A stretch of DNA of 64,000 nucleotides from positions 32,001-96,000 of the forward strand of contig CAVSZB010000004.1 in assembly GCA_963732385.1 (NCBI GenBank), written 5' to 3'. The notes below the pieces were generated by a model. The model did no database searches and was not told the DNA's origin. It worked only from the letters and a program-made list of their open reading frames with translations. Every line of letters begins with the position of its first letter. The stretch's first letter is position 1. The DNA comes from an uncultured bacterium (GTDB lineage Bacteria > Krumholzibacteriota > Krumholzibacteriia > LZORAL124-64-63). Below, one piece after another: positions 13,479 through 58,300 of this stretch. The translations under genes and the position numbers were made by a program.

Positions 13479-14653
13479 TGGTGTCCGATCCCCTCTCGCC
13501 CCGGTCGGCGGCGGCCCTGCGCCGCCGACTGCTGGCATGGTACGACGAGCAGGGGCGCCGCCTGCCGTGGCGGGAGCGCCGGTCGACGTACGGCGCCTGG
13601 ATCGCCGAGATGATGCTGCAGCAGACAACGGTCGCTGTGGCCGTGCCGTACTGGGAGCGTTTTCTCGCCCGGTTTCCCGATGTGATCGCGCTCGCTGCAG
13701 CGCCGGGGCCGGAGGTGCTCGCGTCGTGGGCCGGTCTGGGTTACTACCGGCGGGCGCGCGATCTGCACGCGGCGGCCCGCACCATCGTGGCTCGCGACGG
13801 CGGACGCTTTCCGGACAGTTTCCGGGCCTGGCTGGCGCTGCCAGGCATTGGCCGCTACACGGCCGGGGCGATCGCCAGCATCGCCGGTGGCGAACGGGTG
13901 CCTGCGGTCGACGCGAACGCCCGCCGGGTGCTCCTGCGCTGGCTTTGCGATTCGTCCGACGAGGCGACCCGCGTGACGTCCCGATCACTGGAATTGGCAG
14001 CGGCGGTGCTCGTTCCCGTGGATCGTCCCGGCGACTGGAACCAGGCGCTGATGGATCTGGCCGCGGCGCTGTGCCGCCCCATTGCCCCGGCCTGCAACGC
14101 CTGCCCGGCGTCGCCCTGGTGCCGCGCGCGCTCTGCGGGCGTGGTGGACCGCGTACCGTCTCCTCCGGCACCACGCCCGCGTTCCTCCGCGCGACTCGGT
14201 CTTCTGGTCGTGCAGCGCGGAGGTGCGCTGTTGCTGCTCCCGCCGGGCGCGCCGCCGCAGATCGATCCGCCGCCAGGGACGGTTGTCAGCCGCGGCGATT
14301 TCCAGACTCTCACGCGTGGTCTATGGGGCCTGCCCTCCTCTCCGTGGTGCGCCGTGTCCCGACCGGACGCCGGCGATGCAGGGTTCGGACGCGACGTGGC
14401 GGATGGCTGGTCGGCGTGGCTGAATGGCGCGGGCGTGCGCGCGGCGCACTTCCGGCAGAGGGCCGGCGTTTTCCGGCACGGGATCACGACGTTCCGTCTG
14501 GATGTCGTCGTTGCCTGCGCCGAGCTCGGGAGGGAGGGGGGCGCGGGCGTCTGGCCGCCGGACGCGGTCTGGTGGGCGCCGGACGAGCCGCCGCCGCCCC
14601 TGTCAGGCCTCGCCCGCAAGGCGCTCAGTGCCGTCGGCTGCGCGCCGGTCTGA
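13478..14653 (+). CDS. mutY: A/G-specific adenine glycosylase
   Basis: TGATG coupling to the upstream gene; WIAEMMLQQT, GLGYYRRAR, HhH LPGIGRYTAGAI, and Fe-S motif C-x6-C-x2-C-x5-C. Confidence 0.9.
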   Translation: MVSDPLSPRSAAALRRRLLAWYDEQGRRLPWRERRSTYGAWIAEMMLQQTTVAVAVPYWERFLARFPDVIALAAAPGPEVLASWAGLGYYRRARDLHAAARTIVARDGGRFPDSFRAWLALPGIGRYTAGAIASIAGGERVPAVDANARRVLLRWLCDSSDEATRVTSRSLELAAAVLVPVDRPGDWNQALMDLAAALCRPIAPACNACPASPWCRARSAGVVDRVPSPPAPRPRSSARLGLLVVQRGGALLLLPPGAPPQIDPPPGTVVSRGDFQTLTRGLWGLPSSPWCAVSRPDAGDAGFGRDVADGWSAWLNGAGVRAAHFRQRAGVFRHGITTFRLDVVVACAELGREGGAGVWPPDAVWWAPDEPPPPLSGLARKALSAVGCAPV

Positions 14654-14760
14654 GTCGCCGGCAGCCGTTGCCCGGCGGTGCCGACGCGGCTATCATCGAA
14701 CGGGAATGGTCGAATTTCGCTTGCGGCCCCCCGGCGGTCCGCGTCACCCGGAGAGATGCC

Positions 14761-17700
14761 ATGGACAGCACCGCCACGAAGACAACGAGCGGCGCGCGAT
14801 TGCGCTATGTCACGGCCGCCGCTCTTTTCGACGGCCACGATGCCTCGATCAACATCATCCGGCGGCTGCTGCAGCAATCGGGAGCCGAGGTCATCCATCT
14901 GGGCCATAACCGTTCGGTCCCGGAGGTCGTGAGCGCGGTCCTGCAGGAGGACGCCGACGCGGTTGCAATCAGCAGTTACCAGGGCGGGCACGTGGAGTAC
15001 TTCACCTTCCTGCGCCACGAACTGGATACGCGCGGGCTCCGCCACGTGGCGATCTTCGGTGGCGGTGGCGGGGTCATCCTGCCGGGCGAGATCGCGGCCC
15101 TGCACGCCGTCGGCATCACGCGGGTCTATTCGCCCGACGACGGACGGACGCTCGGTCTCGAGGGCATGATCGCCGACATGCATGACCACGCGCGCGCCGC
15201 GCGCAGCGGCCGGCCGGCGGGGTTGCCGGCCATCACGGCCGGCACGGCCCCCGCGGATGACGCGGCGTTCGCCCGTGCGCTCACCCTGGCCGAGGCGGGG
15301 GAGGCGGTCACGCCGCCGGCGGCTGTGGCGGCCCGCGCTGGACGGATACCGGTCGTCGGCATCACAGGGACCGGTGGCGCGGGCAAGAGTTCGCTGACGG
15401 ACGAGTTGATCCGGCGATATCTGACGGCCCATCCGGAGCAGGCGGTGGCGCTGTTCGCCGTCGATCCGAGCAAACGCCGGACGGGCGGGGCGCTGCTGGG
15501 CGACCGCATCCGCATGAATGCGATCCACGACCCGCGCTGCTTCCTGCGCAGTTTCGCCACCCGCGGCGCCCGTGGCGAGTTGAGCGCTGCCGTCAGCGCT
15601 GCGATCGCGTTGGCGCGCGCCTGGGGATTCGACCTGATCCTGGTCGAGACGAGCGGAATCGGTCAGGGCGATTCCGCCATCGCCGAGATCAGCGACATTT
15701 CGCTCTACGTCATGACCAGCGAATTCGGCGCCGCGACCCAGCTCGAGAAGATAGACATGATCGACTTCGCCGACGTCATCGTCGTCAACAAGTTCGAGCG
15801 CCCCGGGGCGGAGGATGCCCTGCGCGACGTGCGTCGGCAGTACCGGCGGGGCCGCAACGAATTCGCGCGGCCCGACGCGCAGCTCCCGGTCTTCGGCACC
15901 GTGGCGAGCCGCTTCAACGACACCGGGGTCAACGCGCTCTTCGCCTGCCTGGAGCGCCTGCTGCTTTGTGCTCGCGGCAGCCGGCCGCTCGACGCAGGGC
16001 TCGCCGGTCCGGCGGGGGAACCCCGCGCGACGACGCAGGTCGGCACTCTGATCCCGCGTCATCGGGTCGGCTACCTGGGCGAGATTACGCGGGCCGTGCG
16101 GGCGCAACGCGCGCAGGCCGTTCGCGACGCCGAGTTGGTGCGGCGCTGCCAGAACCTGGCCGCGGCGCTCGGCGAGCTGGAGGTCGCCGCCGACACCGGA
16201 TCGCGCGCCGCCGCCGGCGCCCTGCGGCGCCATCTGGAGGCGGCGCGGGTCGCGGCGGGCGAGGCCGTGCTGGCGGAGGTGGCCGGCTGGGAGGACCTGG
16301 TGGCCGGAGCCGCCCGGGACGAGTTGGTGTTCCGCGTCCGCGACCGGGAGGTGCGGACCGCCGCGCACACCGTCACCCTGGCGGGAACGCGACTGCCGAA
16401 GGTGGCGCTGCCGGCCCTCCACGATGCGGGCGACCGTCTGCTCTTCCTCCGGCGCGAAAACCTGCCGGGAGCCTTCCCGTTCACCGCCGGCGTCTTCCCT
16501 TTCAAACGCGCCGACGAGGACCCGCGTCGCCAGTTCGCCGGCGAAGGCGCGCCCGCCCGCACGAACGCGCGCTTCCACTATCTCAGCCGTCACGACGAGG
16601 CCAAGCGTCTCAGCACGGCCTTCGACAGCCTGACGCTTTACGGCGAGGATCCCGACCGCCGGCCCGACATCTACGGCAAGATCGGCGAGGGGGGCGTGTC
16701 CATCTGCACGCTCGACGATATGAAAACGCTCTACGCCGGTTTTGATCTCTGCCACCCCAACACCAGTGTCTCCATGACGATCAACGGGCCGGCGCCGGTG
16801 ATCCTGGCCATGTTCTTCAATACGGCGATCGATCAGCAGATCGCCCGGCGAGAGGCGGACCTTGGCCGTCCGCTCACCGGGACCGAGCTTGCCGAAGTCA
16901 CCGCCCGGACCCTAGCCGGCGTGCGCGGTACGGTCCAGGCCGACATCCTGAAGGAGGATCAGGCGCAGAACACCTGCATTTTCTCCACCGAGTTCGCTTT
17001 GCGTCTGATGGGAGACGTGCAGGCGTTCTTCCTCGAACACGACATCCGGAACTACTATTCGGTCTCCATCAGCGGCTACCACATCGCCGAGGCCGGAGCC
17101 AACCCGATCAGCCAGCTCGCCTTCACGCTCGCCAACGGCTTCACGTACGTCGAGGCATGGCGCGCCCGGGGGATGGAAGTCGACGCCTTCGCGCCCAACC
17201 TCTCCTTTTTCTTCAGCAACGGGCTGGACGCGGAATATACCGTTATCGGCCGCGTGGCGCGGCGCATCTGGGCCATCGCCATGCGGGACCTCTACGGCGC
17301 GAGCGAGCGCAGTCAGAAACTGAAGTACCACATCCAGACTTCCGGCCGCTCGCTGCACGCCCAGGAGGTCGATTTCAACGACATCCGCACCACGCTGCAG
17401 GCGTTGATGGCGATCTTCGACAACTGCAACTCGCTCCACACCAACTCATACGATGAAGCCATCACCACTCCGAGCGAGGAGTCGGTGCGGCGCGCCATGG
17501 CGATCCAGCTGATCATCAGTCGGGAACTCGGTTGGGCGCGCAACGAAAATCCCCTGCAGGGCAGCGCCTTCATCGAGGCGCTGACCGATCTCGTCGAGGA
17601 GGCGGTGCTGCGGGAGTTTGAATGTCTCGACGCCCGCGGCGGCGTTCTGGGCGCGATGGAAACCCAGTACCAGCGGGGACGGATCCAGGAGGAAAGCCTG

Positions 17701-18027
17701 CTCTACGAACACCGCAAGCATGCCGGCGAACTGCCGATCGTCGGTGTGAACATGTTCGTTCGGGAGCGGCAGGCCGTCGAGACCGTCGAACAGCTCGTGC
17801 TCGCGCGCTGCGGAGCCGACGAGAAGGAGGCGCGCCTGGCCGATCTCGCCGCTTTCCGGGCCCGCCACGCGACGGTGGCCGACGCGGCGCTGGCGAGATT
17901 GAGCGAGGTTGCCCTGTCCGACGGCAATGTTTTCGCGGAATTGATGCGCACCGTCCGGGTCTGTTCCCTGGGGCAGATCACCCACGCCCTTTACCAGGTC
18001 GGAGGGCAGTATCGTAGAGCCATGTGA
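14761..18027 (+). CDS. icmF: Fused isobutyryl-CoA mutase / MeaB-like GTPase chaperone
   Basis: B12-binding FDGHDASINI, GTPase GTGGAGKS...ETSGIGQ, and mutase barrel (RLSTAFDS, GTVQADILKE, HIQTSGRSL); about 1088 aa. Confidence 0.93.
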   Translation: MDSTATKTTSGARLRYVTAAALFDGHDASINIIRRLLQQSGAEVIHLGHNRSVPEVVSAVLQEDADAVAISSYQGGHVEYFTFLRHELDTRGLRHVAIFGGGGGVILPGEIAALHAVGITRVYSPDDGRTLGLEGMIADMHDHARAARSGRPAGLPAITAGTAPADDAAFARALTLAEAGEAVTPPAAVAARAGRIPVVGITGTGGAGKSSLTDELIRRYLTAHPEQAVALFAVDPSKRRTGGALLGDRIRMNAIHDPRCFLRSFATRGARGELSAAVSAAIALARAWGFDLILVETSGIGQGDSAIAEISDISLYVMTSEFGAATQLEKIDMIDFADVIVVNKFERPGAEDALRDVRRQYRRGRNEFARPDAQLPVFGTVASRFNDTGVNALFACLERLLLCARGSRPLDAGLAGPAGEPRATTQVGTLIPRHRVGYLGEITRAVRAQRAQAVRDAELVRRCQNLAAALGELEVAADTGSRAAAGALRRHLEAARVAAGEAVLAEVAGWEDLVAGAARDELVFRVRDREVRTAAHTVTLAGTRLPKVALPALHDAGDRLLFLRRENLPGAFPFTAGVFPFKRADEDPRRQFAGEGAPARTNARFHYLSRHDEAKRLSTAFDSLTLYGEDPDRRPDIYGKIGEGGVSICTLDDMKTLYAGFDLCHPNTSVSMTINGPAPVILAMFFNTAIDQQIARREADLGRPLTGTELAEVTARTLAGVRGTVQADILKEDQAQNTCIFSTEFALRLMGDVQAFFLEHDIRNYYSVSISGYHIAEAGANPISQLAFTLANGFTYVEAWRARGMEVDAFAPNLSFFFSNGLDAEYTVIGRVARRIWAIAMRDLYGASERSQKLKYHIQTSGRSLHAQEVDFNDIRTTLQALMAIFDNCNSLHTNSYDEAITTPSEESVRRAMAIQLIISRELGWARNENPLQGSAFIEALTDLVEEAVLREFECLDARGGVLGAMETQYQRGRIQEESLLYEHRKHAGELPIVGVNMFVRERQAVETVEQLVLARCGADEKEARLADLAAFRARHATVADAALARLSEVALSDGNVFAELMRTVRVCSLGQITHALYQVGGQYRRAM

Positions 18028-22091: not shown

Positions 22092-22175
22092 CGTTTGAGG
22101 CGATCACTAGTCGGGTGGCGGAGCCGCCGAAAGTGTGGGAGTGATCCATCCACCCACTCGCCAGGGGACGGGTTG

Positions 22176-25100
22176 ATGAGCGAGCAGCCGAGCGGGTACA
22201 GCAGGCATGAGGCGGAATATCCCGAGCGTTCGCACGCGCTCGACGCGGAGGAGTGCGATCGGTTGGAGGAGATCGGTGATCTCAACGCGCAGGCCTCTGC
22301 CTACAGTTCCTCGCTGGAGTACTATCGACGACTACTTGAAGGTGCCACGCTGCGGTTGCTCATCCCGGCCCGTCGGGCAGGAGTGCTGCGCAAGAGTGTC
22401 GATGCCGCGCTGAATATCGGTGATCTCGCCCTTGCGGAATCATTGCTTGGACTCGCTCCCTCTCTCTTCGACGCCGCCGACGATCTGACGGCCGAGGAGC
22501 GCGCCCATCTCCTTGCCCCTCTAATGGGCAGACGGGCCATTCTTCTCTCCCAGCTGGGACTGTTCAGCGACGCCCTGCAGGCCGCCAAGCATGCCTTCGC
22601 CATCCTGGCCGTGACGGACGAACATCGGGAGGTGGCGAACCTGCAGGTGACGATGGGGGCCTGCCACCAGCGCCTCGGACGTCTGGACAAGGCGGAGGAA
22701 TTTTATCTCGACGCACTCTCCAGTTATCGGCGGATCGGAGACGAACTGGGTGCGGCCACGCTGCACAACAACCTCGGGCTGCTCCACAAGAACGCCTGTC
22801 GCTGGAACCGGGCGCTCGATCTTCTCGAGAAGGCGGTAGCCATAGCGCAGCGTCATGGCGCCACACATCTGCTGGCCCGCCTGCACCTGAATCGCGGCAT
22901 CATTCTCGGGAAGATCGGACGTCTGGGCGAAGCTCGCGAGGATCTCGACCGCAGCCTGCGCCTGTCGCGGAGCCTCGGTGACCGGAATCGTCAGGCCAAG
23001 GTCTGTCTGGCCTACGGGCTGCTGGAAATGCGTGCTGGACGGCTCGTCAAAGCCGAGGAGTTCGTGCTTGAGGGCAAGAACCTGGCCGAACAGGAGCGGT
23101 ACCTGCGCGAGGAAACAATCGCCGACGAGTACCTTGGGGATATCCTGCTGCTGCGCGGCGAAACCGACAAGGCGCTCTTCAATTACAGTCTGGGTCTCGA
23201 CAAGAGTCGCACGATCGGCAAGGTCTGTGATCTGGAGGGCGAACTGCTCCGTCGGGTCGCCGAGGCGCAGCGGATGCGGGGCGACCTCGAACAGGCGATC
23301 GAAACCGGCCTCGCGGCGGTGGCGGTCTGCGAGAAGTGCGGCGAACTGTACGAACTGGGATTCTGCCATCTGACACTCGGCCGCGCCCGCACGACCCGGG
23401 GAGACTTTGCCGGAGCGGATGCGGAGTTCAGGCGCGCGATCCAGCTGTTCCGGCAGCAGAACCTGCCCCGACTTTGGATCGATGCGATCCTCGCTTTCCT
23501 TGATGCCCGGCTCGCCACGGCCGCCCAGCCGGAATTCCTGCTGTTGCGCCGCTATCTGAGCGAGGCTCAGGAGAGCGGGAGCGCTGTGCTGGATGACCGC
23601 CTGCTCTGCCGGCTGCAGCAGGGGCTGGCGGAAGTGCAGATGCGGCTCGGCCAGTTCGACGACGCTCTGCTGACGGCCTATGAACTCGAGCGCAACGCAG
23701 GCGGGCTGGGCGATGCCGGGCTCGGCCTCGCGATCAGCGATTTGCGCGGACGCATCGAACGCGCTCTGCTCGGCGACATCGGGAGCACCGAGAACCACCT
23801 CCAGGCGATTTCCGGAATCCCGGGCATCTTCAGTTGGCATGATGCCTCCATCCCGCGCAATCTCACGGCGGTCCTGCGGGCGGGGATGGACCGGGTACGC
23901 GCCGATCATGGTTTCATCGCTCTCGACTGGGCAGAGGCCGGGACACATCCGCTGCGTGTGGTGGCGCGCGAGGGGCTTTCCGACAATCTCTCGGATCAAC
24001 TCGGGCGCTGGTACCGCGAGAGTGTCCCCGCCAGCGTGGATTCGGCGAACCCCGTCCTTTTCTCCCGGCTGGCCGGGGGCGAACCGCTGCTGGCCGCCGT
24101 GCCGGCCCTCCGGGACAGGGCGGCCGGGTGTCTCTTCATGCCGATCACGCTCGAGGGCAGACGATTCGGCGTCCTCTACCTGGGACGCAGCAGCCTTGTG
24201 GGTGGTGAGGTGGCCTTCGGGCGCCCCGCGCTCGACTTTCTGGCGACCTACATGGGCTTTCTCGCACTGTTCCTGTTCGAGAAGGGGCGGGGACGTCTGC
24301 CCGGCGAGCCTCTTGTGCCGGTGGCGCCTTCAGGCGAGGCCCCCAGTTTCGAGCAGATCATCACCGAGAACGAGCAGATGCTCGAACTGCTCGCCCTCAT
24401 CCGCAAGGTGGCTCCCAGCGACCTCACCGTTCTGCTGACTGGAGAAACCGGCACCGGCAAGGGGCTGCTGGCTCAGGCAGTCCACTCGCTCAGCCGGCGG
24501 CACGGAGGTCGCTTCCTGGCGATCAACTGCGCGGCGATTCCCGAAACGCTGTTGGAAAGCGAGTTGTTCGGACACGTCAAGGGCAGTTTCACCGGGGCGA
24601 TCGGCGACAAGCGCGGGCTGCTTGCGGAGGCCGCGGGGGGCTCTGTCTTCCTGGACGAAATCGGGAAGATGCCGCTCAGCATGCAGGGCAAACTGCTTCA
24701 GTTCCTGGACACCAGGGTCATCCGTCCGGTCGGCTCCAACCAGGAGCGCCAGGTCGATGTGCGTATCATCTGCGCCAGCAAATCCGATCTCCACGACCTG
24801 ACGGAACGGGGACTTTTCCTCCAGGATCTTTTCTACCGGTTGCTCGATTTTCCGCTCGTTGTACCACCGCTGCGCACCCGTCGCGATGATATCCAGTTGC
24901 TCGCGCACCATTTCATCGAACGCTTTGCCGGGGAACTGGGGATTGCGCCACCCGGCTACACCTCCTCGTTCATGGATGCGCTGGTGGCGCACGACTGGCC
25001 CGGCAACATCCGCGAGCTGGAGAAGTCGGTCCGGAGGGCGATAGTCCTGGCCCAGGAGGAGCGCGTTCTCAAGCCGGAACATCTGCCGCGTGAGATCGGC

Positions 25101-25292
25101 GCGGGACGGTCGGCAGGGAAGGTCGGCCGACCTGCGCCGCTGCGCGAGACTCTGGCGACGGTCGAATGCCGGGAGATCGCCGAAGCACTCCGCCTGACGC
25201 GCGGGAACAAGTCGGAGACCGCCCGGATGCTGGAGATCAGCTACCCCAATCTGCTCAAGAAGATCCGTTTCTACGGCCTTCAGACTTCCTGA
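22176..25292 (+). CDS. Sigma54 enhancer-binding activator with a long N-terminal TPR array, GAF-like domain, AAA+ and HTH
   Basis: TPR-like repeats (e.g. ATLHNNLGLLHKNACRWNRALDLLEKA); GETGTGKG, ESELFGHVKGSFTGA, FLDEIGK, WPGNIREL, GNKSETARML; no receiver domain. Confidence 0.9.
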   Translation: MSEQPSGYSRHEAEYPERSHALDAEECDRLEEIGDLNAQASAYSSSLEYYRRLLEGATLRLLIPARRAGVLRKSVDAALNIGDLALAESLLGLAPSLFDAADDLTAEERAHLLAPLMGRRAILLSQLGLFSDALQAAKHAFAILAVTDEHREVANLQVTMGACHQRLGRLDKAEEFYLDALSSYRRIGDELGAATLHNNLGLLHKNACRWNRALDLLEKAVAIAQRHGATHLLARLHLNRGIILGKIGRLGEAREDLDRSLRLSRSLGDRNRQAKVCLAYGLLEMRAGRLVKAEEFVLEGKNLAEQERYLREETIADEYLGDILLLRGETDKALFNYSLGLDKSRTIGKVCDLEGELLRRVAEAQRMRGDLEQAIETGLAAVAVCEKCGELYELGFCHLTLGRARTTRGDFAGADAEFRRAIQLFRQQNLPRLWIDAILAFLDARLATAAQPEFLLLRRYLSEAQESGSAVLDDRLLCRLQQGLAEVQMRLGQFDDALLTAYELERNAGGLGDAGLGLAISDLRGRIERALLGDIGSTENHLQAISGIPGIFSWHDASIPRNLTAVLRAGMDRVRADHGFIALDWAEAGTHPLRVVAREGLSDNLSDQLGRWYRESVPASVDSANPVLFSRLAGGEPLLAAVPALRDRAAGCLFMPITLEGRRFGVLYLGRSSLVGGEVAFGRPALDFLATYMGFLALFLFEKGRGRLPGEPLVPVAPSGEAPSFEQIITENEQMLELLALIRKVAPSDLTVLLTGETGTGKGLLAQAVHSLSRRHGGRFLAINCAAIPETLLESELFGHVKGSFTGAIGDKRGLLAEAAGGSVFLDEIGKMPLSMQGKLLQFLDTRVIRPVGSNQERQVDVRIICASKSDLHDLTERGLFLQDLFYRLLDFPLVVPPLRTRRDDIQLLAHHFIERFAGELGIAPPGYTSSFMDALVAHDWPGNIRELEKSVRRAIVLAQEERVLKPEHLPREIGAGRSAGKVGRPAPLRETLATVECREIAEALRLTRGNKSETARMLEISYPNLLKKIRFYGLQTS

Positions 25293-25373
25293 CGCGCGCC
25301 AGCCTTTTTTTATAACCTCAGGCCAGATGCGCCCCGTCGTCTGTAAATTGTTTTAATACATTAAATAGCATTA

Positions 25374-25386
25374 TATCAACGACTTG
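25374..25386 (+). promoter_or_regulatory. IHF-like binding site
   Basis: TATCAA-CGAC-TTG matches WATCAANNNNTTR and is preceded by an AT tract (25343-25373) in a GC-rich genome. Confidence 0.65.
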
Positions 25387-25512
25387 CTCGTTCAGGCCCC
25401 GGGCTGTCAACGATTGAATCAATCGCGGGCCCCGACCTCCGATGAATACCGTTTCATGATTTGTAAATGACTTTTCTACAATAACTTAAGAATTTTCGAG
25501 CGAAGCAGTCTG

Positions 25513-25528
25513 TGGCACGCGGAGTGCT
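25513..25528 (+). promoter_or_regulatory. Sigma54 (-24/-12) promoter 1
   Basis: TGGCACGCGGAGTGCT: GG and GC are correctly spaced against TGGCACG-N4-TTGC, downstream of a sigma54 activator gene and an AT-rich region. Confidence 0.75.
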
Positions 25529-25539
25529 GTACATGGCGT

Positions 25540-25883
25540 CTGAAGGGGCTCTCGTTGCAGGGAAACAGCCGCTTCTCAAGGTCCAGGCCGCTGGGGCGGC
25601 AGAATTTGGGGAGGGATATCCGGGTTCGCGATCCTCACTGCTTACCGGCTGAAAGAGGAGGTTCTCTTCGTGGGTTCTGCCTGCGGGTTCTTGAGAGGTG
25701 GGGTCTTGAGGACCGATCGGGCAGAGTAGAGAGAACCGGCGGAACGGATCCCTCCCCGAAGTTCCATTCAAAGCCTGACCAGTCAGGCACGTGTCGGTGC
25801 GAGGAAAGAGCCGGGCTGGCCTTGAATTGGCGAGATTCAAGGTCGGCCGTGCCGGAACCCCGGCGGGCTCTTTCCTCATTTTT
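25540..25883 (+). ncRNA. Candidate sigma54-dependent structured non-coding RNA (~340 nt), family unknown
   Basis: Starts at the predicted TSS of the sigma54 promoter. Stems: 25568-75/25593-600; 25605-17/25748-60; internal TCTGCC/GGCAGA hairpin; 25773-88; GAGGAAAGAGCC (25801-12)/GGCTCTTTCCTC (25866-77) followed by ATTTTT. No credible long ORF. Confidence 0.6.
25801..25883 (+). terminator. Branched 3' stem with U-tract (probable intrinsic terminator of the ncRNA)
   Basis: 12-bp perfect closing stem enclosing two hairpins, then ATTTTT. Confidence 0.55.
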
Positions 25884-26174
25884 CCGTCTCACCGGACCGG
25901 CATGCAGCCTGTTCTCCCCTGTCCTGCGTCATCGGCTGCCAAGTCTGCTCCGCGTCTACTCCTGGAGATCCGCTGGACTCTGTTGAGCACAAAGGGGACG
26001 GTGCCGCCCATCGCGGGCGCACGCCGGCTGGCGGCAGTCGTCCTCTTCCACCTTTCGGGTTGGGGCGGGCTCAGCAATCAAGATCCTCTAATTAAACAAT
26101 TTACGCTGATGCATTCCTCCGCCGCGCACGGCATGCCGCCGTACGGCATCCGATCCGTGGCTGAGCCGTGAGCC

Positions 26175-26190
26175 TGGCACGATGTCTGCG
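26175..26190 (+). promoter_or_regulatory. Sigma54 (-24/-12) promoter 2
   Basis: TGGCACGATGTCTGCG with correct GG/GC spacing, about 80 nt upstream of the ATG at 26269. Confidence 0.7.
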
Positions 26191-26268
26191 ATACTCCAGG
26201 GCCCGGCCGTGACACATCACAGGTGCGGTGCGGGGCTGGCGGCGGCGGACGAAGTGAGGGAGGAAGAG

Positions 26269-27150
26269 ATGAAGCTGGCGCAGGCGGTGACCCTGGCGAT
26301 CCTGCCACTGGCGTTGGCGATCTGGCTCGGCGGCTGTTCCGAAGAAGATTGCATCGAGTGCGTGGACCGAGATCCCCCCGCGGTGCCGACCGGAGTGTAC
26401 AGTGTCACCGGAGACGGCCGTATCACCGTGTTTTGGAACGACATCTACCAGAGCGATCTGGCGGGCTACGCCGTTTATCGGGATGACAATGCCGACGGCG
26501 AATTCGAGCATCTCGCCGATCTCGCCTGGGACGAGAATTGGGATCAGACCACCGGCCTGCACCAGTACGTGGACGAACCGGTCACGAACGGCCTGACCTA
26601 CGAGTACGCGGTCGCTTCGTACGACGTGGCGGGGAACGAGAGCGAGCTCAGCTTCGAGGTCGTGCTCGACACGCCGCGTCCCGAGGGGTTCGATGTCGAT
26701 CTCTTCGACCGTCTCGTCACGCCGGCCGCCAGCGGCTTCGACTTCAGCCGCGCTCTGCGGGTCCCGGCTGCGGATGCCACGGCCGACATCTTTGTCGAGT
26801 GGTCCGGAGATGTCCCCTTCGTCTGTGCCGCGCGCAGTGATGTCGAACTGCAGGACTACGGCAACGTGATGACCGACTCGGGCTTCATCGATCTCGATCT
26901 GCTCAGCTACGCCCCCCTCGAGGGCTGGACGGTCGCGCGACGGGTCGAGGCGATTAGGGGCCATGCCTATGTCGTGCGTGTTGGCACTTCCACCTATCAC
27001 TACGCGAAGATCGCGGTCATGGCTCTCGACGGCATCACGGGCTCGATTACTGTTGATTGGGCGTATCAGATCGCCGCCGACAATCGGGAACTGAAGGCGA
27101 TGCCGGCGCCGCCTCGCACGGGAGTCGTCGTCGAAGTGATGAGTTTCTAG
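26269..27150 (+). CDS. Lipoprotein with fibronectin type III-like domain
   Basis: Lipobox LGG-C; 'PPAVPTGVYSVTGDGRITVFW...DLAGYAVYR...NGLTYEYAVASYDVAGNES' is an FN3-like pattern. Confidence 0.8.
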   Translation: MKLAQAVTLAILPLALAIWLGGCSEEDCIECVDRDPPAVPTGVYSVTGDGRITVFWNDIYQSDLAGYAVYRDDNADGEFEHLADLAWDENWDQTTGLHQYVDEPVTNGLTYEYAVASYDVAGNESELSFEVVLDTPRPEGFDVDLFDRLVTPAASGFDFSRALRVPAADATADIFVEWSGDVPFVCAARSDVELQDYGNVMTDSGFIDLDLLSYAPLEGWTVARRVEAIRGHAYVVRVGTSTYHYAKIAVMALDGITGSITVDWAYQIAADNRELKAMPAPPRTGVVVEVMSF

Positions 27151-27194
27151 GGGCTGCGGCGAGGCCGGCTGAAGGGCCGGCGAGGAGGCGTGAC

Positions 27195-28934
27195 ATGGAA
27201 CATCAGGGATATCGCACTCATCGTGGCATGGGCGGAGTAGCCCGGACCCGTCACGGGTCGGCGCGGCTCTCCCTGCTGCTCGTCGCGCTGTTGCTGGTTC
27301 CCCTTGCCGGAGCGGCGAACCCCGCTGCGAATCCGCCCGACGATGGCGTCGGGCCGAACTGGACCGGCTACGAGACTCAGCCGCTGCGCGTGAACATTAC
27401 GCAAGGACGCGGCGATGGAGATACGTACCGCCGGGGAGAGCAGATCAACATCTTATTCGAGGCGAACCAGGACGCCTACGCAGTCGTCTACCGCATCGAC
27501 TCCGATGGCGGGGTCACCATCCTCTGGCCACGTAGTCGGCTCGACGACGGCTTTGTCTTCGGCCGTCATCAGTACAGCCTGCCGGCCGCCGGGGCGCCCC
27601 GCCTGCGCGCCGGTTCCGAGCCGGGAGTCGAGTATGTCGAAGCCGTGGTCTCCCTGTACCCCTTCGACCTGCGGGATATCGAGGTGGACTTTCATCACGA
27701 GCCCGCGGACGAAGACTATCGCTACGCGGTAGCCGGTGATCCTTTCCTGGCGATGAACGAGGTCAATCACGCGATCACCCGCCTGGAAAACGCCGAGGAC
27801 TTCGTCGTGACGAACTACGTCAGCTACTTCGTCGAACGCCGGGTGGAGCATCCCCGCTACCTGTGCAGTCAGTGCCACGCCGGCGAGAACTACGATCCTT
27901 ACCGTGCGAGCTGCACGATCGCGATTCATCACGACTACGACTGGTCCAACCGCTGGTACGTCCGTTTCGGCTATTACCCGGTCTACCAGTACCCGGCCTA
28001 CTACTATGTCGATCCCTGGAGTTCGCGGCCGTGGATCAACTACTGGTACACCCCCTGGTATGACTGGCCGGGCTACGCGGTGTACGACTGGCCGTTCAGT
28101 TGCTACGTCTGGAACTATTCTCCCTACTGGCATGATGACGCCTGGAGCCGCTGGAAGTCAGGCGATCGTCGCTACACGCCGCTAGACAAGCGCGATATCC
28201 GTGACGAACGCTGGCGGCAGAAGCAGATCGCGCGTTCCACACCGTTCGTCCGCGAGGCGCGTCCGCCGCGCGACGTGGAAGAGGTCCTGCGCACCCGTAC
28301 GAAGCTCGACCGCGATAGGGTCCGCGTGCTGGGGGGCGGGGGCGGCGGACGCGGGGACTTCGCGAACGTGTCCCCCGACCTGCGCCAGCCGGTAACCTTC
28401 AGCGAGGGCCCGCGTCGTGACGCTCGCGAAGGCGGTCTGCGCGTGCGTGAAGACAGGGCACGGGGCGGCCGGGTGCCGCCGGTCGCAGGAGCACGGACGC
28501 GTCTCGGGGACGAACGGCCCGGCCCTGCGCGTCCGGTGTCGCCGGCGCGTGGCACTACCGACCGTGGCGCCATCAGGCCGCTCGATCCACGCAAGCCCGT
28601 CGCTCGTATCTGGTCGGGTGGACGGGGCGGATCGACCACCGAGCAGGGCGAGCGGACAGCGCCCGAGGCCCGTCGTGGGCGCGACACGAAGCCCGTGCGG
28701 GTGCGGGACGGGAGCGGAGAGACGCAGACGCCCGAATCCTCGCGCGGACAGGCGGTCCGCGGCGATAATCGTTCCTCAACCGACCGTCCCACACCGTCGC
28801 TGCGCCGCGAGGATCGCCCGACATCGCCCCCCTCGGCGCGTGCCGGGGGCGGTCCGAGCACAGCGCGTCCGGCGAGTGGCGGAGGCCGGACCAAGGGCGG
28901 CCAGGAAGATAACGGCGAGCAGCGCCGGCGCTGA
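27195..28934 (+). CDS. Secreted DUF4384-like protein with a CxxCH motif, Tyr/Trp/Pro-rich segment and disordered Arg-rich tail
   Basis: GAGGAGG RBS; hydrophobic signal; 'YRRGEQINILFEANQDAYAVVYRIDSDGGVTILWP'; CSQCH. Confidence 0.7.
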   Translation: MEHQGYRTHRGMGGVARTRHGSARLSLLLVALLLVPLAGAANPAANPPDDGVGPNWTGYETQPLRVNITQGRGDGDTYRRGEQINILFEANQDAYAVVYRIDSDGGVTILWPRSRLDDGFVFGRHQYSLPAAGAPRLRAGSEPGVEYVEAVVSLYPFDLRDIEVDFHHEPADEDYRYAVAGDPFLAMNEVNHAITRLENAEDFVVTNYVSYFVERRVEHPRYLCSQCHAGENYDPYRASCTIAIHHDYDWSNRWYVRFGYYPVYQYPAYYYVDPWSSRPWINYWYTPWYDWPGYAVYDWPFSCYVWNYSPYWHDDAWSRWKSGDRRYTPLDKRDIRDERWRQKQIARSTPFVREARPPRDVEEVLRTRTKLDRDRVRVLGGGGGGRGDFANVSPDLRQPVTFSEGPRRDAREGGLRVREDRARGGRVPPVAGARTRLGDERPGPARPVSPARGTTDRGAIRPLDPRKPVARIWSGGRGGSTTEQGERTAPEARRGRDTKPVRVRDGSGETQTPESSRGQAVRGDNRSSTDRPTPSLRREDRPTSPPSARAGGGPSTARPASGGGRTKGGQEDNGEQRRR

Positions 28935-32714: not shown

Positions 32715-32816
32715 GGCGGCGGCTTCCGGTGTGGCGCCTCGGACACGGCATTCGTTAGTATGGTGATGCCCCCGGGACGGCGATGTCCGTCGCGTGGCGG
32801 CGCAGAAAGGCGGATC

Positions 32817-33758
32817 ATGGCGCGCGTGAACATGCGAATCGGGACGGTGGCGCTGTGGGCGCTGGCCGCCACCCTGGCCACCGGAGTTTCCGCGGCGCGG
32901 GCCGGAAAGCCGGGCGACGCCGGCCTCCTTTTCCTGCGGATGCCGGTGGGGGCGCGCGAAAGCGCGATGGGCGGCGCCGGAGTGGCCGCGCCGACAGGCG
33001 CGGCGGCGGTCTGGTGGAATCCGGCCCGCCTGGCGCTGGCGGGCGGCGGGACCGACCTCCTGCTGCAGCATCAGCGGCTCTACGGCCTGTTCAGCAAGGA
33101 GAGCGCCTGCCTGGCCCACCGCGCGGCGGGGGGCGTGATCGGGGTGCAGTTTTCCGGTTTCTATGCCGACGAGATCGATCGTTACGAGGAGGACACGGTC
33201 GGCGTCCCGCTGGGGACGTTCAAACCATACGACGTCGCCTTCGGCGTGAGCTACGCCCGGCAGGTTGCCGACCGGGTGGCGGTGGGGGCGACCGTGAAAG
33301 TACTGTACGAGAAGATCGACATCTACAGCGACACCGGTTTCGCCGCGGACCTGTTCGTCAGCCACGAAGCGGTGATCGAGGGACTCGTTCTCGGCGCTTC
33401 CGTGACGAATCTGGGCGGACAGATCAATCTGAATGCCGAGCCGTTCGACCTGCCCACCGCGGTGAGGCTGGGCGCTGCCTACGATCCGTCGCACCCGTTC
33501 CTGCGCGGGAAGGTGACGCTGGCCGGAGACATTTTCATGCCCAATGATGGCAATGCGAAGGCGCACATCGGGGCGGAGTACCGGATCGTACCGGAATTCG
33601 CGCTGCGGTTCGGATCGCGTGTCAACTACGACAATCAGGGGTTGACCGCCGGGCTGGGTCTGCGCAAGGGGACGCTCGAGGTGGGCTATGCCTTCGAGGA
33701 GTCCAAGGTTGTGGGTTTCGACGACCTGCACAAGTTCTCGCTCGAACTGCACTACTAA
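32817..33758 (+). CDS. PorV/PorQ-family outer-membrane beta-barrel protein
   Basis: Signal peptide; 'FLRMPVGARESAMGGA...AVWWNPARL', 'NLGG...LPTAVRLG', C-terminal 'HKFSLELHY'. Confidence 0.85.
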   Translation: MARVNMRIGTVALWALAATLATGVSAARAGKPGDAGLLFLRMPVGARESAMGGAGVAAPTGAAAVWWNPARLALAGGGTDLLLQHQRLYGLFSKESACLAHRAAGGVIGVQFSGFYADEIDRYEEDTVGVPLGTFKPYDVAFGVSYARQVADRVAVGATVKVLYEKIDIYSDTGFAADLFVSHEAVIEGLVLGASVTNLGGQINLNAEPFDLPTAVRLGAAYDPSHPFLRGKVTLAGDIFMPNDGNAKAHIGAEYRIVPEFALRFGSRVNYDNQGLTAGLGLRKGTLEVGYAFEESKVVGFDDLHKFSLELHY

Positions 33759-55313: not shown

Positions 55314-58300
55314 ATGAAGAGACTCACATTTATCGTGTGTCTGTCTCTGGCACTGTTCGCCAGCCTCGCAATCGCTGGGGATTTTTCCAGAGATAACAGC
55401 GGACAGACTCAGCGTATCCCGTTTGACGCCAGAGGCGCCAACACCAGCATGCTTAATGGCTGGCCCATGAGCGCCGGCAAGGCCGCAGCCGAAACGGTTT
55501 ATATCCTGGGCGGCCCCAACCTGCAGACCGGCAAGTTCCAGAACACGTCGTTTGCGCCGGACGCTCAGGGTTGGTTCGGCATGGACTACACGGACATGAA
55601 GGCAAGTTGGCACATCGCCGACTACAATGCCGCGAATCTGGATCCCGTCGCCGATAACGTCGCCATGTGGTGCGGCGAGATTTTTTCCGGGGACTGCGGT
55701 GGCGGCGATACGGTTGAGGGCTACGATAACAACTACAACCTCTGGCTCGATTGGTACGGCCAGGTCGCGGACAATTCCCTGCCCACGTGGGTCACCGTGA
55801 AAGCGCATGTGAACAACGACTCCGAGCCCGACTACGACTATCTGACTCTCCAGGTCGAGACGGTCGGCGTGATGGAACTCGCGCATGCCGATGCCGTCTT
55901 TACCGGTGTTTCTGTCTATGGGGTCGATGCCGGTAGCGACATGAACGTGAGGTTCCAGGTGCAGCCTGACAGTTACGTCGGGGACGGCCTCGACGAGGTG
56001 CATCTGCGCTGGCTCGGTCAGGCGGACACCGGTTATTCCGACGGCGACTGCCTGTATCCCAGCAGTGGCCTCGCCCAGATCGACGACATCGAGGTCCTCT
56101 TCGGTGATCTCGGTTCGGAAGTGAGCCAGTCCTATGACACGTTCCAGCCCGGCGATCCGGTGAGCTGGGTCAACGTCAAGCCGCCGTTTGTCGGCGATTT
56201 CCACAAGGTGTGGCCGTTGCTGGGGGACTCCGACGAGTGCGCCAGCAATGTGTCTCCGCAGATGGCGTTCATCGACGATGGCGTTGTGGTTCCCGGGACG
56301 GGTGGTACCGTGTGCGGGACCTGGAACTACGGTCCCGGTGGCTTTGGCACGACGACAACCGGTGGTCTCGCCGGCGATCAATACGGGATCAACAACGATG
56401 TCTGGTCGCCTGTGATGGATTGGCCCGTGGGCGTGACCGCCAGCCTCGACGGCGCCAATTTCCTGTGGAACGTGTACACGCACCTTCCGATCGATAACGG
56501 GCTCTTTTACCAGTGGGGCATCCGCACCTCCCTGGACGGCGGCCTTACCTGGCCCGGCAGTTGGAAGGATAACAATACCGTGTACTACGGCGGCGGTCTG
56601 GCCACGTACGGCCGCGCCGGCTTTGCAGTGACCAGCAAGCTGAACTCCGGTCGCAACAAGGTCCAGATCGCGCTGGGCGTGACTGAGCCCTGGCTCGCGG
56701 ATTTCACCGGCAACGATAATACGCCGGCTCCGTACTTCGACAACGTGACGCTGCTCGCCTTCTCCTTCGGCGGGCCCGCGCTGTCGGTGACGGGTGCGTG
56801 GTCCTTGTTCAACGACAACTGGCCGGAAAATTCCGAAATCGACTATGCGGATCTGACCCAGAACTCGGTGCGCGTGGACATCGGGCAGAACATCGCTGCC
56901 AGAGCCACCGAGCGTAACGATCCGGGCGACTCTGTCGTCGTGACAATCAAGGCGGTCCGCACCGGTGCCGTGCTTACCGGTCGGCCCACCATGCACGTCA
57001 AGATGAAGATCAATCCTCTGTTCGATTCCACCTGCCGCACGGCCATTCCGGCCGGCTTTACTCAGGTTGGCAACATCATCACCGGCTCAGTGCTGGGCGA
57101 CACGGTCTGGACGACGTCCGTTCCGCCGGTTCGCATGGCTAACCTCTGGAAGTGGGACCTGCCCGACACCGGGTTCTTCTTCCCCGGCGACAGCTTCCAC
57201 TACTACTTCAGAGCCGAGGACACCCTGGGCGGAGTTCTCGGAGTCTCGCATATGCCGGCCGATACCGCCGGCTTCGCCTATTTCCCGGGCCACCCGCTCT
57301 ACGACTCGGGTCGCTATTATGAACTCTACAAGACTGACGCTCTGCCGACGATGATCACGGCGGTGAAGGACGTTGGTCAGCCTCACGTGCTGTTCTGGGA
57401 CGATTCCCAGGACCGTGCCAACCAGGATGAGTGGTTCGCTGCCCTGGACAATCTCGGCTTCCGTCAGGGCATCGACTATGACATCTACTGCGAGAACTCT
57501 CCGTCCTCCGGCCAGGGCAATGGCCTCGGCGGCCGGACGAACGCGCTGAAAATGTCCGGTTACAACACGATGCTTTACACGGCTGGGAATCTGGGCTCCT
57601 ACACGTTCTGCAACGGAGATCCCGCCGGCGATCCCGGCAACGATATCTTCGTGGTGGATTCCTGGCTGCAGCAGGGCGGCAAGAACATGTTTGCCACCGG
57701 CGATAACATCATCCAGGACCTGTCGGCCTCCGGCGCCAACGCGGTCGCTTTCAGGGACAAGTGGTTCGGGGTTGCCTACAACAACTTCGAAGTCAAGCCG
57801 CTCATTGGTGGCCAGATGGCGCCGCACGTGAGCCCGATCACCGTCGCGAGCGCGCCGGTGTTGAGCAAGCCCTACATCGCTCAGGGTGGCTGTGAGGGCG
57901 GCATCAACGACTTTGACGCCGTCACCGCGGTTGCTCCGGCGGTCCGGATTGCCCAGTTCACCAGCCCGACCGGCGCCCTCGGGGTCTACCCGTACGCTGC
58001 GGCGGTCTACAACAACGTCACGGTGAACACCGCTCGCGTCGTTCTCATGCCCTACGACCTGTGCTACATCTGGGACGGCGCCCCGACCGGCGGGATCGCG
58101 GTCCGTGCCCAGATTTTGCAGGACGTTCTGGCCTTCTTCGGCAATTTGCCTGGCGGGGCTGCAGTGGGCGTGACGCCCGAGGCAGTGTTCACGGCCAGGA
58201 ACTTCCCGAACCCGTTCAACCCGAGCACGAAGATCGAGTTCACCCTGCCGGCCAAGAGCCAGGTTGAGCTGAAGATCTACAACGTGCGCGGTGAACTGGT

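What the first reader, a model, noticed from the sequence alone, without database searches (positions are those of the whole stretch)
25540..25883. Highly structured ~340-nt candidate ncRNA behind a sigma54 promoter
Dense pairing is visible. There is a 13-bp long-range stem, TTTGGGGAGGGAT (25605-17) with ATCCCTCCCCGAA (25748-60). Nested inside are AAGAG/CTCTT, TCTGCC/GGCAGA and GGTTCTTGAGA/TCTTGAGGACC, the last fully paired only with G-U wobbles, which points to selection at the RNA level on the + strand. Downstream are the hairpin GCCTGA/TCAGGC (25773-88) and a 12-bp stem (25801-12/25866-77) enclosing two hairpins and ending in ATTTTT. It does not match any RNA family I recognise.
Basis: partly seen in the sequence, partly recalled or inferred. 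Interest (0 to 1): 0.85.

Follow-up and report, generated by a model that had tools for sequence, protein, structure and literature searches.

The report
Sigma-54-driven structured RNA beside its activator
This is a real, previously uncatalogued non-coding RNA gene of about 345 bases, with a conserved fold, that sits between a sigma-54 activator gene and a surface-protein operon in an uncultured bacterial phylum; what it acts on is still unknown.

Summary
Window 25539-25883 (+) is a stand-alone RNA gene. It has a sigma-54 promoter (TGGCAC-N5-GTGCT, 25513-25528), about 345 nt of dense structure and a Y-shaped intrinsic terminator. The + strand folds far better than shuffles (z -4.84; - strand -2.56). 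Rfam 15 gives no hit in the window or in 20 homologous loci. Homologues are single-copy in 78 of 91 genomes of the same family and in 8 of 9 sampled genomes of a second family; their named records are mostly titled Candidatus Krumholzibacteriota. The gene order is always activator (TPR + sigma-54 AAA+ + HTH), RNA, second sigma-54 promoter, Fn3-like lipoprotein, DUF4384 protein. Covariation is strong: 44 of 49 core pairs and 17 of 26 pairs in the 3' domain show compensatory changes. No ORF is conserved. Two metatranscriptomes hold contigs that cover only the RNA body. The invariant hairpin GA-GGUGGGG-UC also lies in the same gap in five further families (34 of 50 loci). The most likely role is a trans-acting regulatory RNA switched on by the neighbouring activator and acting through its invariant G-rich loops (GGUGGGG, GGCGAGA). 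The partner is unknown: tests for pairing with the neighbouring mRNA and for a CsrA-sponge design gave nothing. The logic resembles CbrB-CrcZ, without homology. This scan already noted the same RNA in another genome (e1-1501466).

The parts
22095..25292 (+). Gene of the probable activator: TPR repeats + sigma-54 interaction AAA+ domain + Fis-type HTH (bEBP); the start codon is uncertain
   Evidence: Pfam: Sigma54_activat 2e-62, AAA_lid_14, TPR_12, TPR_MalT, HTH_8. A homologue lies upstream on the same strand in 35 of 35 loci and in 7 of 8 loci of the second family.
25342..25480 (+). Candidate enhancer region: three TGTAAA/TTTACA-like sites about 60 bp apart (25342-60, 25405-21, 25462-80); the first overlaps the terminator-like hairpin of the activator gene (25324-43)
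   Evidence: Read by eye. Half-sites TGTAAA/TTTACA: 42 in 7.35 kb upstream of the RNA promoters against 22 in 264 kb of background. Terminator-like site. That the activator binds here is inferred.
25513..25528 (+). Sigma-54 promoter P1, TGGCACgcggaGTGCT (GG at 25514-15, GC at 25526-27); predicted start near 25539
   Evidence: Sequence. One such match at the same distance in 35 of 35 homologues. rpoN is present in the genome.
25539..25883 (+). The RNA, about 345 nt (310-365 nt in 35 homologues)
   Evidence: RNA-library contigs cover 25571-25854.
25542..25575 (+). 5' hairpin: GAAGGGGCU/AGCCGCUUC with the conserved loop GUUGCAGGGAAAC (25554-66)
   Evidence: Alignment A6. The stem is conserved mainly in sequence: 77% of cells paired against 37-55% when slid; covariation is weak.
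25605..25760 (+). Core domain: long closing helix 25605-17/25748-60; CCUC/GAGG helix 25632-36/25655-59 around the mini-hairpin GCU-UACC-GGC (25640-49); helix 25660-67/25728-35; long arm 25676-81/25720-25 and 25686-96/25704-14
   Evidence: RNAalifold on A3, model R1. 89.5% of cells paired against 40-50% when slid; 44 of 49 pairs have compensatory changes; 0 of 500 shuffles reach this.
25697..25703 (+). Invariant heptaloop GGUGGGG, closed by G-C and A-U
   Evidence: GAGGTGGGGTC is nearly invariant in 35 sequences (one row reads GGTGGGAT). The closing pairs are GC 51/53 and AU 53/53. GGTGGGGT lies in the same gap in 34 of 50 loci of other families.
25773..25788 (+). Variable linker hairpin GCCUGA-CCAG-UCAGGC
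   Evidence: Other genomes have a different hairpin at this place, for example GGAUC...GAUCC.
25801..25883 (+). 3' Y-shaped domain and terminator: outer stem 25801-12/25866-77; hairpin 25814-26/25836-48 with loop UUGGCGAGA (25827-35); hairpin 25851-64; U-run 25879-83
   Evidence: A5: 89.9% of cells paired against 58% or less when slid; 17 of 26 pairs compensatory. TTGAAnnGGCGAGATTCAA is invariant in 35 sequences.
25952..25991 (+). Conserved element of unknown role between the terminator and the second promoter (GCGTCTACTCCTGGAGATCCGCTGGACTCTGTTGAGCACA; elsewhere GTCYCC-N4-GGRGAC followed by TGTCC)
   Evidence: Seen by eye in most loci of both families. Not counted or tested.
26175..26189 (+). 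Second sigma-54 promoter P2, TGGCACgatgtCTGC, in front of the surface-protein genes
   Evidence: A TGG[CT]A-type match lies 215-367 nt after the 3' hairpin in 30 of 35 loci. Of the other five, two have too little DNA, one has a variant the pattern excluded, and two have no clear match.
26269..27150 (+). First gene after P2: lipoprotein (LGGC lipobox) with a fibronectin-type-III-like region
   Evidence: Translation. Atlas neighbours carry fn3 or Fn3_SaeA. No Pfam hit. A homologue lies downstream in 32 of 35 loci.
27057..28934 (+). Second gene: DUF4384 protein (start uncertain)
   Evidence: Pfam DUF4384 8.6e-12. Downstream in 24 of 35 loci; the others have short flanks.

Best explanation
A stand-alone, highly structured non-coding RNA of about 345 nt is transcribed from a sigma-54 promoter and ended by its own Y-shaped intrinsic terminator. 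The gene, its strand, fold, conservation and synteny are shown; RNA-library contigs hint that it is expressed. The rest is inferred. The TPR-type enhancer-binding protein encoded directly upstream probably binds TGTAAA/TTTACA-like sites in front of the promoter and switches the RNA on when its TPR sensor part is triggered. The RNA then acts in trans. Its invariant, exposed G-rich loops (GGUGGGG on the long arm, NNGGCGAGA in the 3' domain) would be the contact surfaces for a protein or a pyrimidine-rich RNA. Through this it would tune expression of cell-surface functions together with the adjacent sigma-54 surface-lipoprotein operon. My odds: real sigma-54-dependent non-coding RNA 0.9; controlled by the neighbouring activator 0.7; acts by binding or titrating a protein 0.35; acts by pairing with mRNAs 0.3.
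For: The promoter is conserved in 35 of 35 homologues and rpoN is present. The activator gene lies upstream on the same strand in 35 of 35 loci and in 7 of 8 loci of a second family. Half-sites are about 69-fold enriched upstream of the RNA promoter. The fold has z -4.84. In the core, 44 of 49 pairs are compensatory and 89.5% of cells are paired against 40-50% in slid controls. In the 3' domain, 17 of 26 pairs are compensatory. The RNA is single copy in the genome and in 78 of 91 family genomes, 53 of 55 high-quality ones. No ORF is conserved, and the overlapping ORFs have no Pfam hit. RNA-library contigs of two studies cover only 25571-25854 and 25657-25793. The loop sequences are invariant while their stems covary: GGCGAGA has different stems in the second family, and GGUGGGG recurs in the same gap in five more families.
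Against: No target or partner is identified. The duplex test against the 5' UTR of the next gene gave a mean z of -0.25 over 30 genomes. No conserved complement of either loop lies in the loci. Hfq was not found in a genome that is 95.8% complete. Expression rests on Logan contigs, which cannot show ends, strand or level and could come from DNA in the library. Dependence on sigma-54 and on this activator is untested. The second promoter does not share the half-site enrichment (3 in 6.5 kb), so co-regulation of the RNA and the operon is not shown.
Confidence: 0.75

Rival explanations
1. It is a cis-acting leader or attenuator of the downstream surface-protein operon. Transcription from P1 would normally stop at the Y-shaped terminator, and a signal read by the structured RNA would let it run on into the lipoprotein gene.
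For: It has the same orientation as the operon and lies directly upstream of it in every locus. In the second family several terminators lack a clear U-run. The fold is complex enough to bind a ligand.
Against: A separate sigma-54 promoter lies 215-367 nt further on in 30 of 35 loci, with its own short 5' UTR and Shine-Dalgarno sequence. The terminator stem with a U-run is conserved in 35 sequences. No contig bridges the RNA and the gene (contigs cannot exclude a bridge).
Confidence: 0.12
2. It is a CsrA-titrating RNA. The 5' hairpin loop (UACAGGGAU in many relatives, GCAGGGAA here) would hold CsrA and so relieve repression of the lipoprotein mRNA, whose Shine-Dalgarno region often sits in a GGA-containing hairpin.
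For: A CsrA gene is present. The loop resembles the published CsrA selection consensus, which I recall and did not look up. Several 5' UTRs of the next gene read GACC-UGGA-GGUC or ACAGGAGG.
Against: Only one conserved GGA lies in a loop, whereas known sponges carry many. The motif is missing from the 5' region of the second family and of other families, where the loop differs. Binding was not tested.
Confidence: 0.07
3. It is not an RNA gene at all: a protein-coding ORF (window 25555-25986 + or 25454-25879 -), a repeat or a mobile-element end.
For: Both ORFs are open in the window.
Against: Neither ORF has a Pfam hit. An open frame of 100 codons or more is kept in only 9 of 35 (+) and 12 of 35 (-) homologues. 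Indels are not in threes. Changes are compensatory in stems. It is single copy and syntenic.
Confidence: 0.02

Closest known systems
CrcZ/CrcY under CbrB (Pseudomonas)
   Same: A regulatory RNA directly activated by a sigma-N-dependent enhancer-binding protein together with IHF. CbrB binds several TGTTAC/GTAACA subsites, and the RNA acts by sequestering a protein (passages of PMC6296734). Here there is also a sigma-54 promoter and several TGTAAA/TTTACA-like sites. That crcZ lies next to cbrB is recalled, not read.
   Different: There is no sequence or structure match: Rfam gave no hit. The RNA is G+C-rich and tightly folded, not built of A-rich single-stranded motifs (recalled). No Hfq was found. 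The activator has a TPR sensor part, not a receiver domain. The RNA sits between the activator and a second sigma-54 promoter.
Qrr sRNAs under LuxO (Vibrio)
   Same: Sigma-54-dependent small RNAs switched on by an NtrC-type activator (start of the abstract of bioRxiv 10.1101/2021.07.01.450815, listing).
   Different: Qrr RNAs are about 100 nt, Hfq-dependent and act by base pairing (recalled). Here the RNA is about 345 nt with a covarying multi-helix fold and no Hfq was found. No Rfam match.
GlmY/GlmZ with GlrK/GlrR, NrsZ with NtrC, Pxr of Myxococcus (all recalled, not read here)
   Same: Further examples of sRNA genes with sigma-54 promoters, some next to their activator genes.
   Different: All are much smaller and unrelated in sequence. 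None matched the window in Rfam.
Large structured bacterial ncRNAs of unknown function (OLE, GOLLD, ROOL, raiA; recalled)
   Same: Size above 300 nt, many covarying helices, invariant loops, narrow phyletic range and unknown biochemical role.
   Different: No match to any of their Rfam models. This RNA has a dedicated sigma-54 promoter and activator, which those do not (recalled).

Membership tests
Sigma-54/bEBP-dependent regulatory RNA encoded beside its activator (CbrB-CrcZ-type arrangement) | Sigma-54 promoter (GG-N10-GC) at the 5' end of the RNA | tested here: met
   TGGCACgcggaGTGCT at 25513-28. One match at the same distance in 35 of 35 homologues and in the 8 loci of the second family (by eye).
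Sigma-54/bEBP-dependent regulatory RNA encoded beside its activator (CbrB-CrcZ-type arrangement) | Adjacent gene for an enhancer-binding protein, and sigma-54 in the genome | tested here: met
   Pfam Sigma54_activat 2e-62 + HTH_8. Synteny in 35 of 35 loci and 7 of 8. rpoN found.
Sigma-54/bEBP-dependent regulatory RNA encoded beside its activator (CbrB-CrcZ-type arrangement) | Activator-binding sites upstream of the promoter | tested here: inconclusive
   Half-sites TGTAAA/TTTACA are enriched (42 in 7.35 kb against 22 in 264 kb). A strict palindrome pattern matched only 5 of 35 loci, and binding is untested.
Sigma-54/bEBP-dependent regulatory RNA encoded beside its activator (CbrB-CrcZ-type arrangement) | Transcription depends on sigma-54 and the activator | not testable with these tools
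   Needs genetics or in vitro transcription.
CrcZ/CrcY, Qrr, GlmY/Z, Pxr, NrsZ, 6S and all other Rfam 15 families (homology) | Match to the family's covariance model at gathering score | tested here: not met
   0 matches in the 64-kb window. Only Yfr1 at E 6.5 in the permissive scan of 25300-26200. 0 matches in 20 homologous loci.
CsrB/RsmZ-type CsrA sponge | Many GGA motifs exposed in hairpin loops | tested here: not met
   Only one conserved loop holds GGA (the 5' hairpin), and it is not kept in other families.
Hfq-dependent base-pairing sRNA | Hfq present in the genome | tested here: not met
   PF17209 not found in the genome, which is 95.8% complete. Absence is not proven.
Intrinsic (Rho-independent) terminator | G+C-rich stem followed at once by a U-run | tested here: met
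   12-bp stem 25801-12/25866-77, then AUUUUU. Conserved with covariation. It is branched, which is why the simple scan did not list it.

The most novel reading that the evidence does not exclude
The RNA is not a simple antisense regulator. It would be the RNA subunit or ligand of a phylum-wide sigma-54 control module. Its invariant GA-GGUGGGG-UC hairpin, kept in the same gap in at least seven of the nine sampled families while the rest of the RNA diverges beyond recognition, would be a specific docking site for a protein of the circuit. Candidates are the TPR part of the activator or the sigma-54 holoenzyme, giving RNA-mediated feedback on sigma-54 transcription, a sigma-54 counterpart of 6S RNA.
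Probability: 0.07. Interest if true: 0.88.

Novelty: new variant of a known kind. Interest (0 to 1): 0.62.

Why it matters
Structured bacterial RNAs above 300 nt with many covarying helices and invariant loops are rare, and several such classes have turned out to have unusual biochemistry. This one has a clear genetic handle: a dedicated sigma-54 promoter, a neighbouring activator with a TPR sensor part, and a fixed place in front of a sigma-54 surface-protein operon. It occurs throughout much of a phylum that has no cultured model. It adds a deep-branching, non-proteobacterial example to the few known pairs of a sigma-54 activator and a regulatory RNA. It fits the published view of sigma-54 as a controller of the cell exterior (PMC3162934; title and start of abstract seen). 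It also offers a defined RNA whose invariant loops can be tested directly.

Tried and rejected
1. Known RNA family: rejected by Rfam.

2. Protein-coding: rejected.

3. Opposite-strand RNA: the fold is weaker, G-U pairs are needed on the + strand, and promoter and terminator face the + strand.

4. Pairing with the 5' UTR and start of the next gene: RNA.duplexfold against 60 mononucleotide shuffles in 30 genomes gave a mean z of -0.25. This is a crude method that allows large loops. I see no signal.

5. A complement of the loops (TCTCGCC, CCCCACC and their 6-mers) at a conserved place in the loci: none.

6. CsrA sponge: one motif only, and it is not conserved outside the family.

7. A kissing contact between the UACC tetraloop and GGUG of the heptaloop: the three relatives with other tetraloops (CUAG, CUCG, UUAG) keep GGUGGGG, so there is no covariation (by eye).

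8. A shared full palindrome TGTnAA-N4-9-TTnACA at both promoters: 5 of 35 at P1 and 0 at P2.

9. Model R1 on other families with filters off: only the apical hairpin matched, at E 0.01-0.09. Homology along the whole length is therefore not shown there.

10. Runs X3 and X6 gave no cover of the RNA. X3 covers only 25203-25241 of the activator gene. This is no evidence of silence.

11. Literature: three searches ('Krumholzibacteriota' + 'RNA motif'; 'sigma-54' + 'small RNA' + 'enhancer-binding protein' + 'intergenic'; 'Krumholzibacteriota' or 'sigma-54') listed no paper describing this RNA. Subscription journals and supplements were not searched.

Full report
**What is in the sequence**

- TGGCACGCGGAGTGCT (25513-25528) fits the sigma-54 pattern GG-N10-GC. 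It places the start of transcription near 25539.
- The RNA body runs to the U-run at 25879-25883.
- The + strand folds to -177.7 kcal/mol, with z -4.84 and none of 100 dinucleotide shuffles as good. The - strand reaches z -2.56, with 1 of 100 as good.
- The AAGAG/CTCTT hairpin is in neither the minimum-energy fold nor the consensus model.

**It is not a known RNA family**
- Rfam 15 gave no match at gathering score in the whole window.
- The permissive scan of 25300-26200 gave only Yfr1 at E 6.5.
- Twenty homologous loci gave no match.
- Three literature searches listed no description of it.

**Homologues**
- blastn against 61 related genomes found 10 with a match, all in the window's own family f1.
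- A scan of one genome per species for the invariant 3' hairpin, TTGAANNGGCGAGATTCAA, returned 67 loci. About 70 chance matches are expected for 17 fixed bases in 596 Gb.
- 35 of the 67 also carry the other conserved blocks. Nine of those duplicate loci, leaving 26 new ones. Their record titles are mostly Candidatus Krumholzibacteriia or Krumholzibacteriota, with some 'uncultured Fibrobacteraceae' and a few odd labels.
- These 26, together with the nine full-length loci L001-L009, gave 35 non-redundant sequences. Each has exactly one GG[CT]A[CT]-N5-nTG[CA] match 270-340 nt upstream of the 3' hairpin.
- Their lengths from the predicted start are 310-365 nt, median 329.

**Structure**

The 35 sequences align at 56% mean column identity.
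- RNAalifold on the whole alignment gave 53 pairs, 35 of them with compensatory changes.
- A model of the core (R1: 169 positions, 49 pairs) re-aligned 72 matches, 53 of them distinct.
- On that alignment 89.5% of cells form standard pairs, against 40-50% when the 3' partners are slid by 1-3 columns. 44 of 49 pairs have changes on both sides, and no shuffle of 500 reaches any of the five measures. The alignment is fitted to the model, which favours it, but the margin is large.
- In the 3' domain 89.9% of cells are paired, against 58% or less when slid, and 17 of 26 pairs are compensatory.
- The 5' hairpin is conserved mostly in sequence, so its support is weaker: 77% paired against 37-55% when slid.

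The architecture, from 5' to 3', is:
- a 5' hairpin with the loop GUUnCAGGGAA;
- a core closed by a long helix (25605-17/25748-60 in the window), which holds the mini-hairpin GCU-UACC-GGC and a long arm capped by GA-GGUGGGG-UC;
- a variable hairpin;
- a Y-shaped 3' domain, whose outer stem followed by a U-run is the terminator. Its first inner hairpin carries the loop NNGGCGAGA on the invariant stem UUGAA/UUCAA.

**Not coding, single copy**
- The two ORFs that overlap the region in the window have no Pfam hit.
- An open frame of 100 codons or more survives in only 9 of 35 (+) and 12 of 35 (-) homologues.
- R1 finds one copy in the window's genome.
- R1 finds one copy in each of 78 of 91 genomes of family f1. 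That is 53 of 55 genomes of high quality and 26 of 28 genera.

**Context**
- The upstream gene (22095-25292) encodes TPR repeats, a sigma-54 interaction AAA+ domain and a Fis-type HTH.
- By tblastn, a homologue lies upstream on the same strand in 35 of 35 loci.
- The next gene downstream is found in 32 of 35 loci; the three misses have almost no downstream DNA. The DUF4384 gene is found in 24 of 35 loci; the rest have short flanks.
- The next gene downstream starts at 26269. It encodes a lipoprotein with an Fn3-like region.
- A second sigma-54 promoter (window 26175-26189) lies 215-367 nt beyond the 3' hairpin in 30 of 35 loci. Of the other five, L053 and L067 are too short, L036 has TGGCACGATGCATGC, which the pattern excluded, and L005 and L007 show no clear match.
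- Further downstream are an FG-GAP protein and a weak PorV-like barrel.
- The genome has rpoN and CsrA. Hfq was not found; the genome is 95.8% complete.
- No second activator gene lies in the window.

**Enhancer sites**
- Upstream of the RNA promoter the half-sites TGTAAA/TTTACA occur 42 times in 7.35 kb, against 22 times in 264 kb of the remaining locus DNA.
- Upstream of the second promoter they occur only 3 times in 6.5 kb.
- A strict palindrome pattern matched 5 of 35 loci at P1 and none at P2.
- The RNA promoter therefore has an enhancer signature of its own. Whether the same activator serves both promoters stays open.

**Range**
- In a sample of 151 genomes of the phylum, R1 matched 54 of 60 in f1 and 8 of 9 in f6, and none in seven other families (the strict filters lose weak matches).
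- The f6 loci keep the order activator, RNA, lipoprotein, DUF4384 and the sigma-54 promoter. They carry two GGCGAGA loops on stems of different sequence.
- Homologues of the lipoprotein occur in 136 of 151 genomes, in all families.
- I fetched the DNA upstream of 50 of them in the other families. GGTGGGGT lies between an activator homologue and the lipoprotein gene in 34 of 50. By family: f4 10 of 11, f8 6 of 7, f3 13 of 14, f7 4 of 4, f9 1 of 1, f5 0 of 8, f2 0 of 5. It mostly comes with a sigma-54 promoter 120-300 nt before it, and in f3, f7 and f9 with a GGCGAGA hairpin after it.
- An 8-mer is expected about 0.014 times per 900-nt gap.
- With filters off, R1 matches only the apical hairpin there, at E 0.01-0.09. 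These are probably distant relatives that share the hairpin and the position, but homology along the whole length is not shown.

**Expression**
- One search found two metatranscriptomic runs, from two studies, holding a small share of the words.
- In X1, two 151-nt contigs (depth about 31; 3 and 8 differences) cover 25571-25854.
- In X2, one contig (depth 2.2) covers 25657-25793.
- Neither run covers the flanking genes.
- These contigs come from close relatives. They cannot show ends, strand or level, and DNA in the library is not excluded. This is a hint, not proof.

**Mechanism**

What is shown is a conserved, folded, promoter- and terminator-bounded gene. Everything about its action is inferred.
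- Invariant loops on covarying stems point to sequence-specific contacts.
- The two G-rich loops share the pattern GGYGRGR, which I saw by eye.
- Pairing with the neighbouring mRNA found no support, nor did local complements of the loops.
- A CsrA-sponge design is not met.
- The nearest described logic is CbrB-CrcZ. There, a sigma-N-dependent activator with IHF binds several TGTTAC/GTAACA subsites and drives an RNA that sequesters a protein (passages of PMC6296734).

**Earlier notes of this scan**

Note e1-1501466, on another genome that shares 90 of 165 words, had already described an RNA of about 345 nt behind one of two sigma-54 promoters in front of surface-protein genes. My results agree with it. 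They extend it with the second family, the hairpin in five more families, the covariation counts and the RNA-library contigs.

Noticed in passing
window 25952-25991; also L112-L119 and most f1 loci, 20-120 nt after the RNA terminator: A conserved element follows the RNA: an inverted repeat GTCYCC-N4-GGRGAC (some copies need a G-U pair on the + strand), then TGTCC and CACA. It could be the enhancer of the second promoter, an operator or a small RNA hairpin.
   Followed up: partly
L135, L137, L139, L131 (families f7, f9, f3, f8): Here the Y-shaped GGCGAGA module stands apart from the GGUGGGG unit, which has its own terminator-like hairpin. The module's second hairpin has a conserved loop AUGGACAUCCCCUCCGGUG; its CCCCUCC is the exact complement of a GGAGGGG near the 5' end of the L139 unit. 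This may mean two RNAs that pair, or one long RNA.
   Followed up: no
5' UTRs of the lipoprotein gene in L013, L016, L034, L039, L042, L050, L076: A conserved hairpin GACC-UGGA-GGUC half-buries the Shine-Dalgarno sequence just before the start codon. Translation of this gene may be regulated.
   Followed up: no
window 13537-18027 (+): A 1496-residue fusion of a B12-binding domain, a MeaB GTPase and methylmalonyl-CoA mutase in one frame.
   Followed up: no
window 32760-33758 (+) and 55314-58454 (+): A weak PorV-like barrel (E 5.5e-5, below Pfam's cut-off) ends the surface-protein gene row. A 1047-residue protein carries a type IX secretion C-terminal sorting domain.
   Followed up: no
L041, L052, L073 and others, between the two distal enhancer-like sites upstream of the RNA promoter: The terminator hairpin of the activator gene lies between the candidate enhancer sites of the RNA promoter, so the two genes share their control region.
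   Followed up: no
L148, L153 (f4, f8) and all f5 and f2 loci: In these loci the lipoprotein homologue lies in another context, with no activator gene within 2 kb. In f5 it also lacks the sigma-54 promoter, while the f2 loci (L173-L176) and L148 and L153 keep the promoter just upstream of the gene. L153 also holds 100 withheld bases. One f2 locus, L175, is an exception: it has the activator homologue and a first sigma-54 promoter but no GGTGGGGT. The module is not universal in the phylum.
   Followed up: partly
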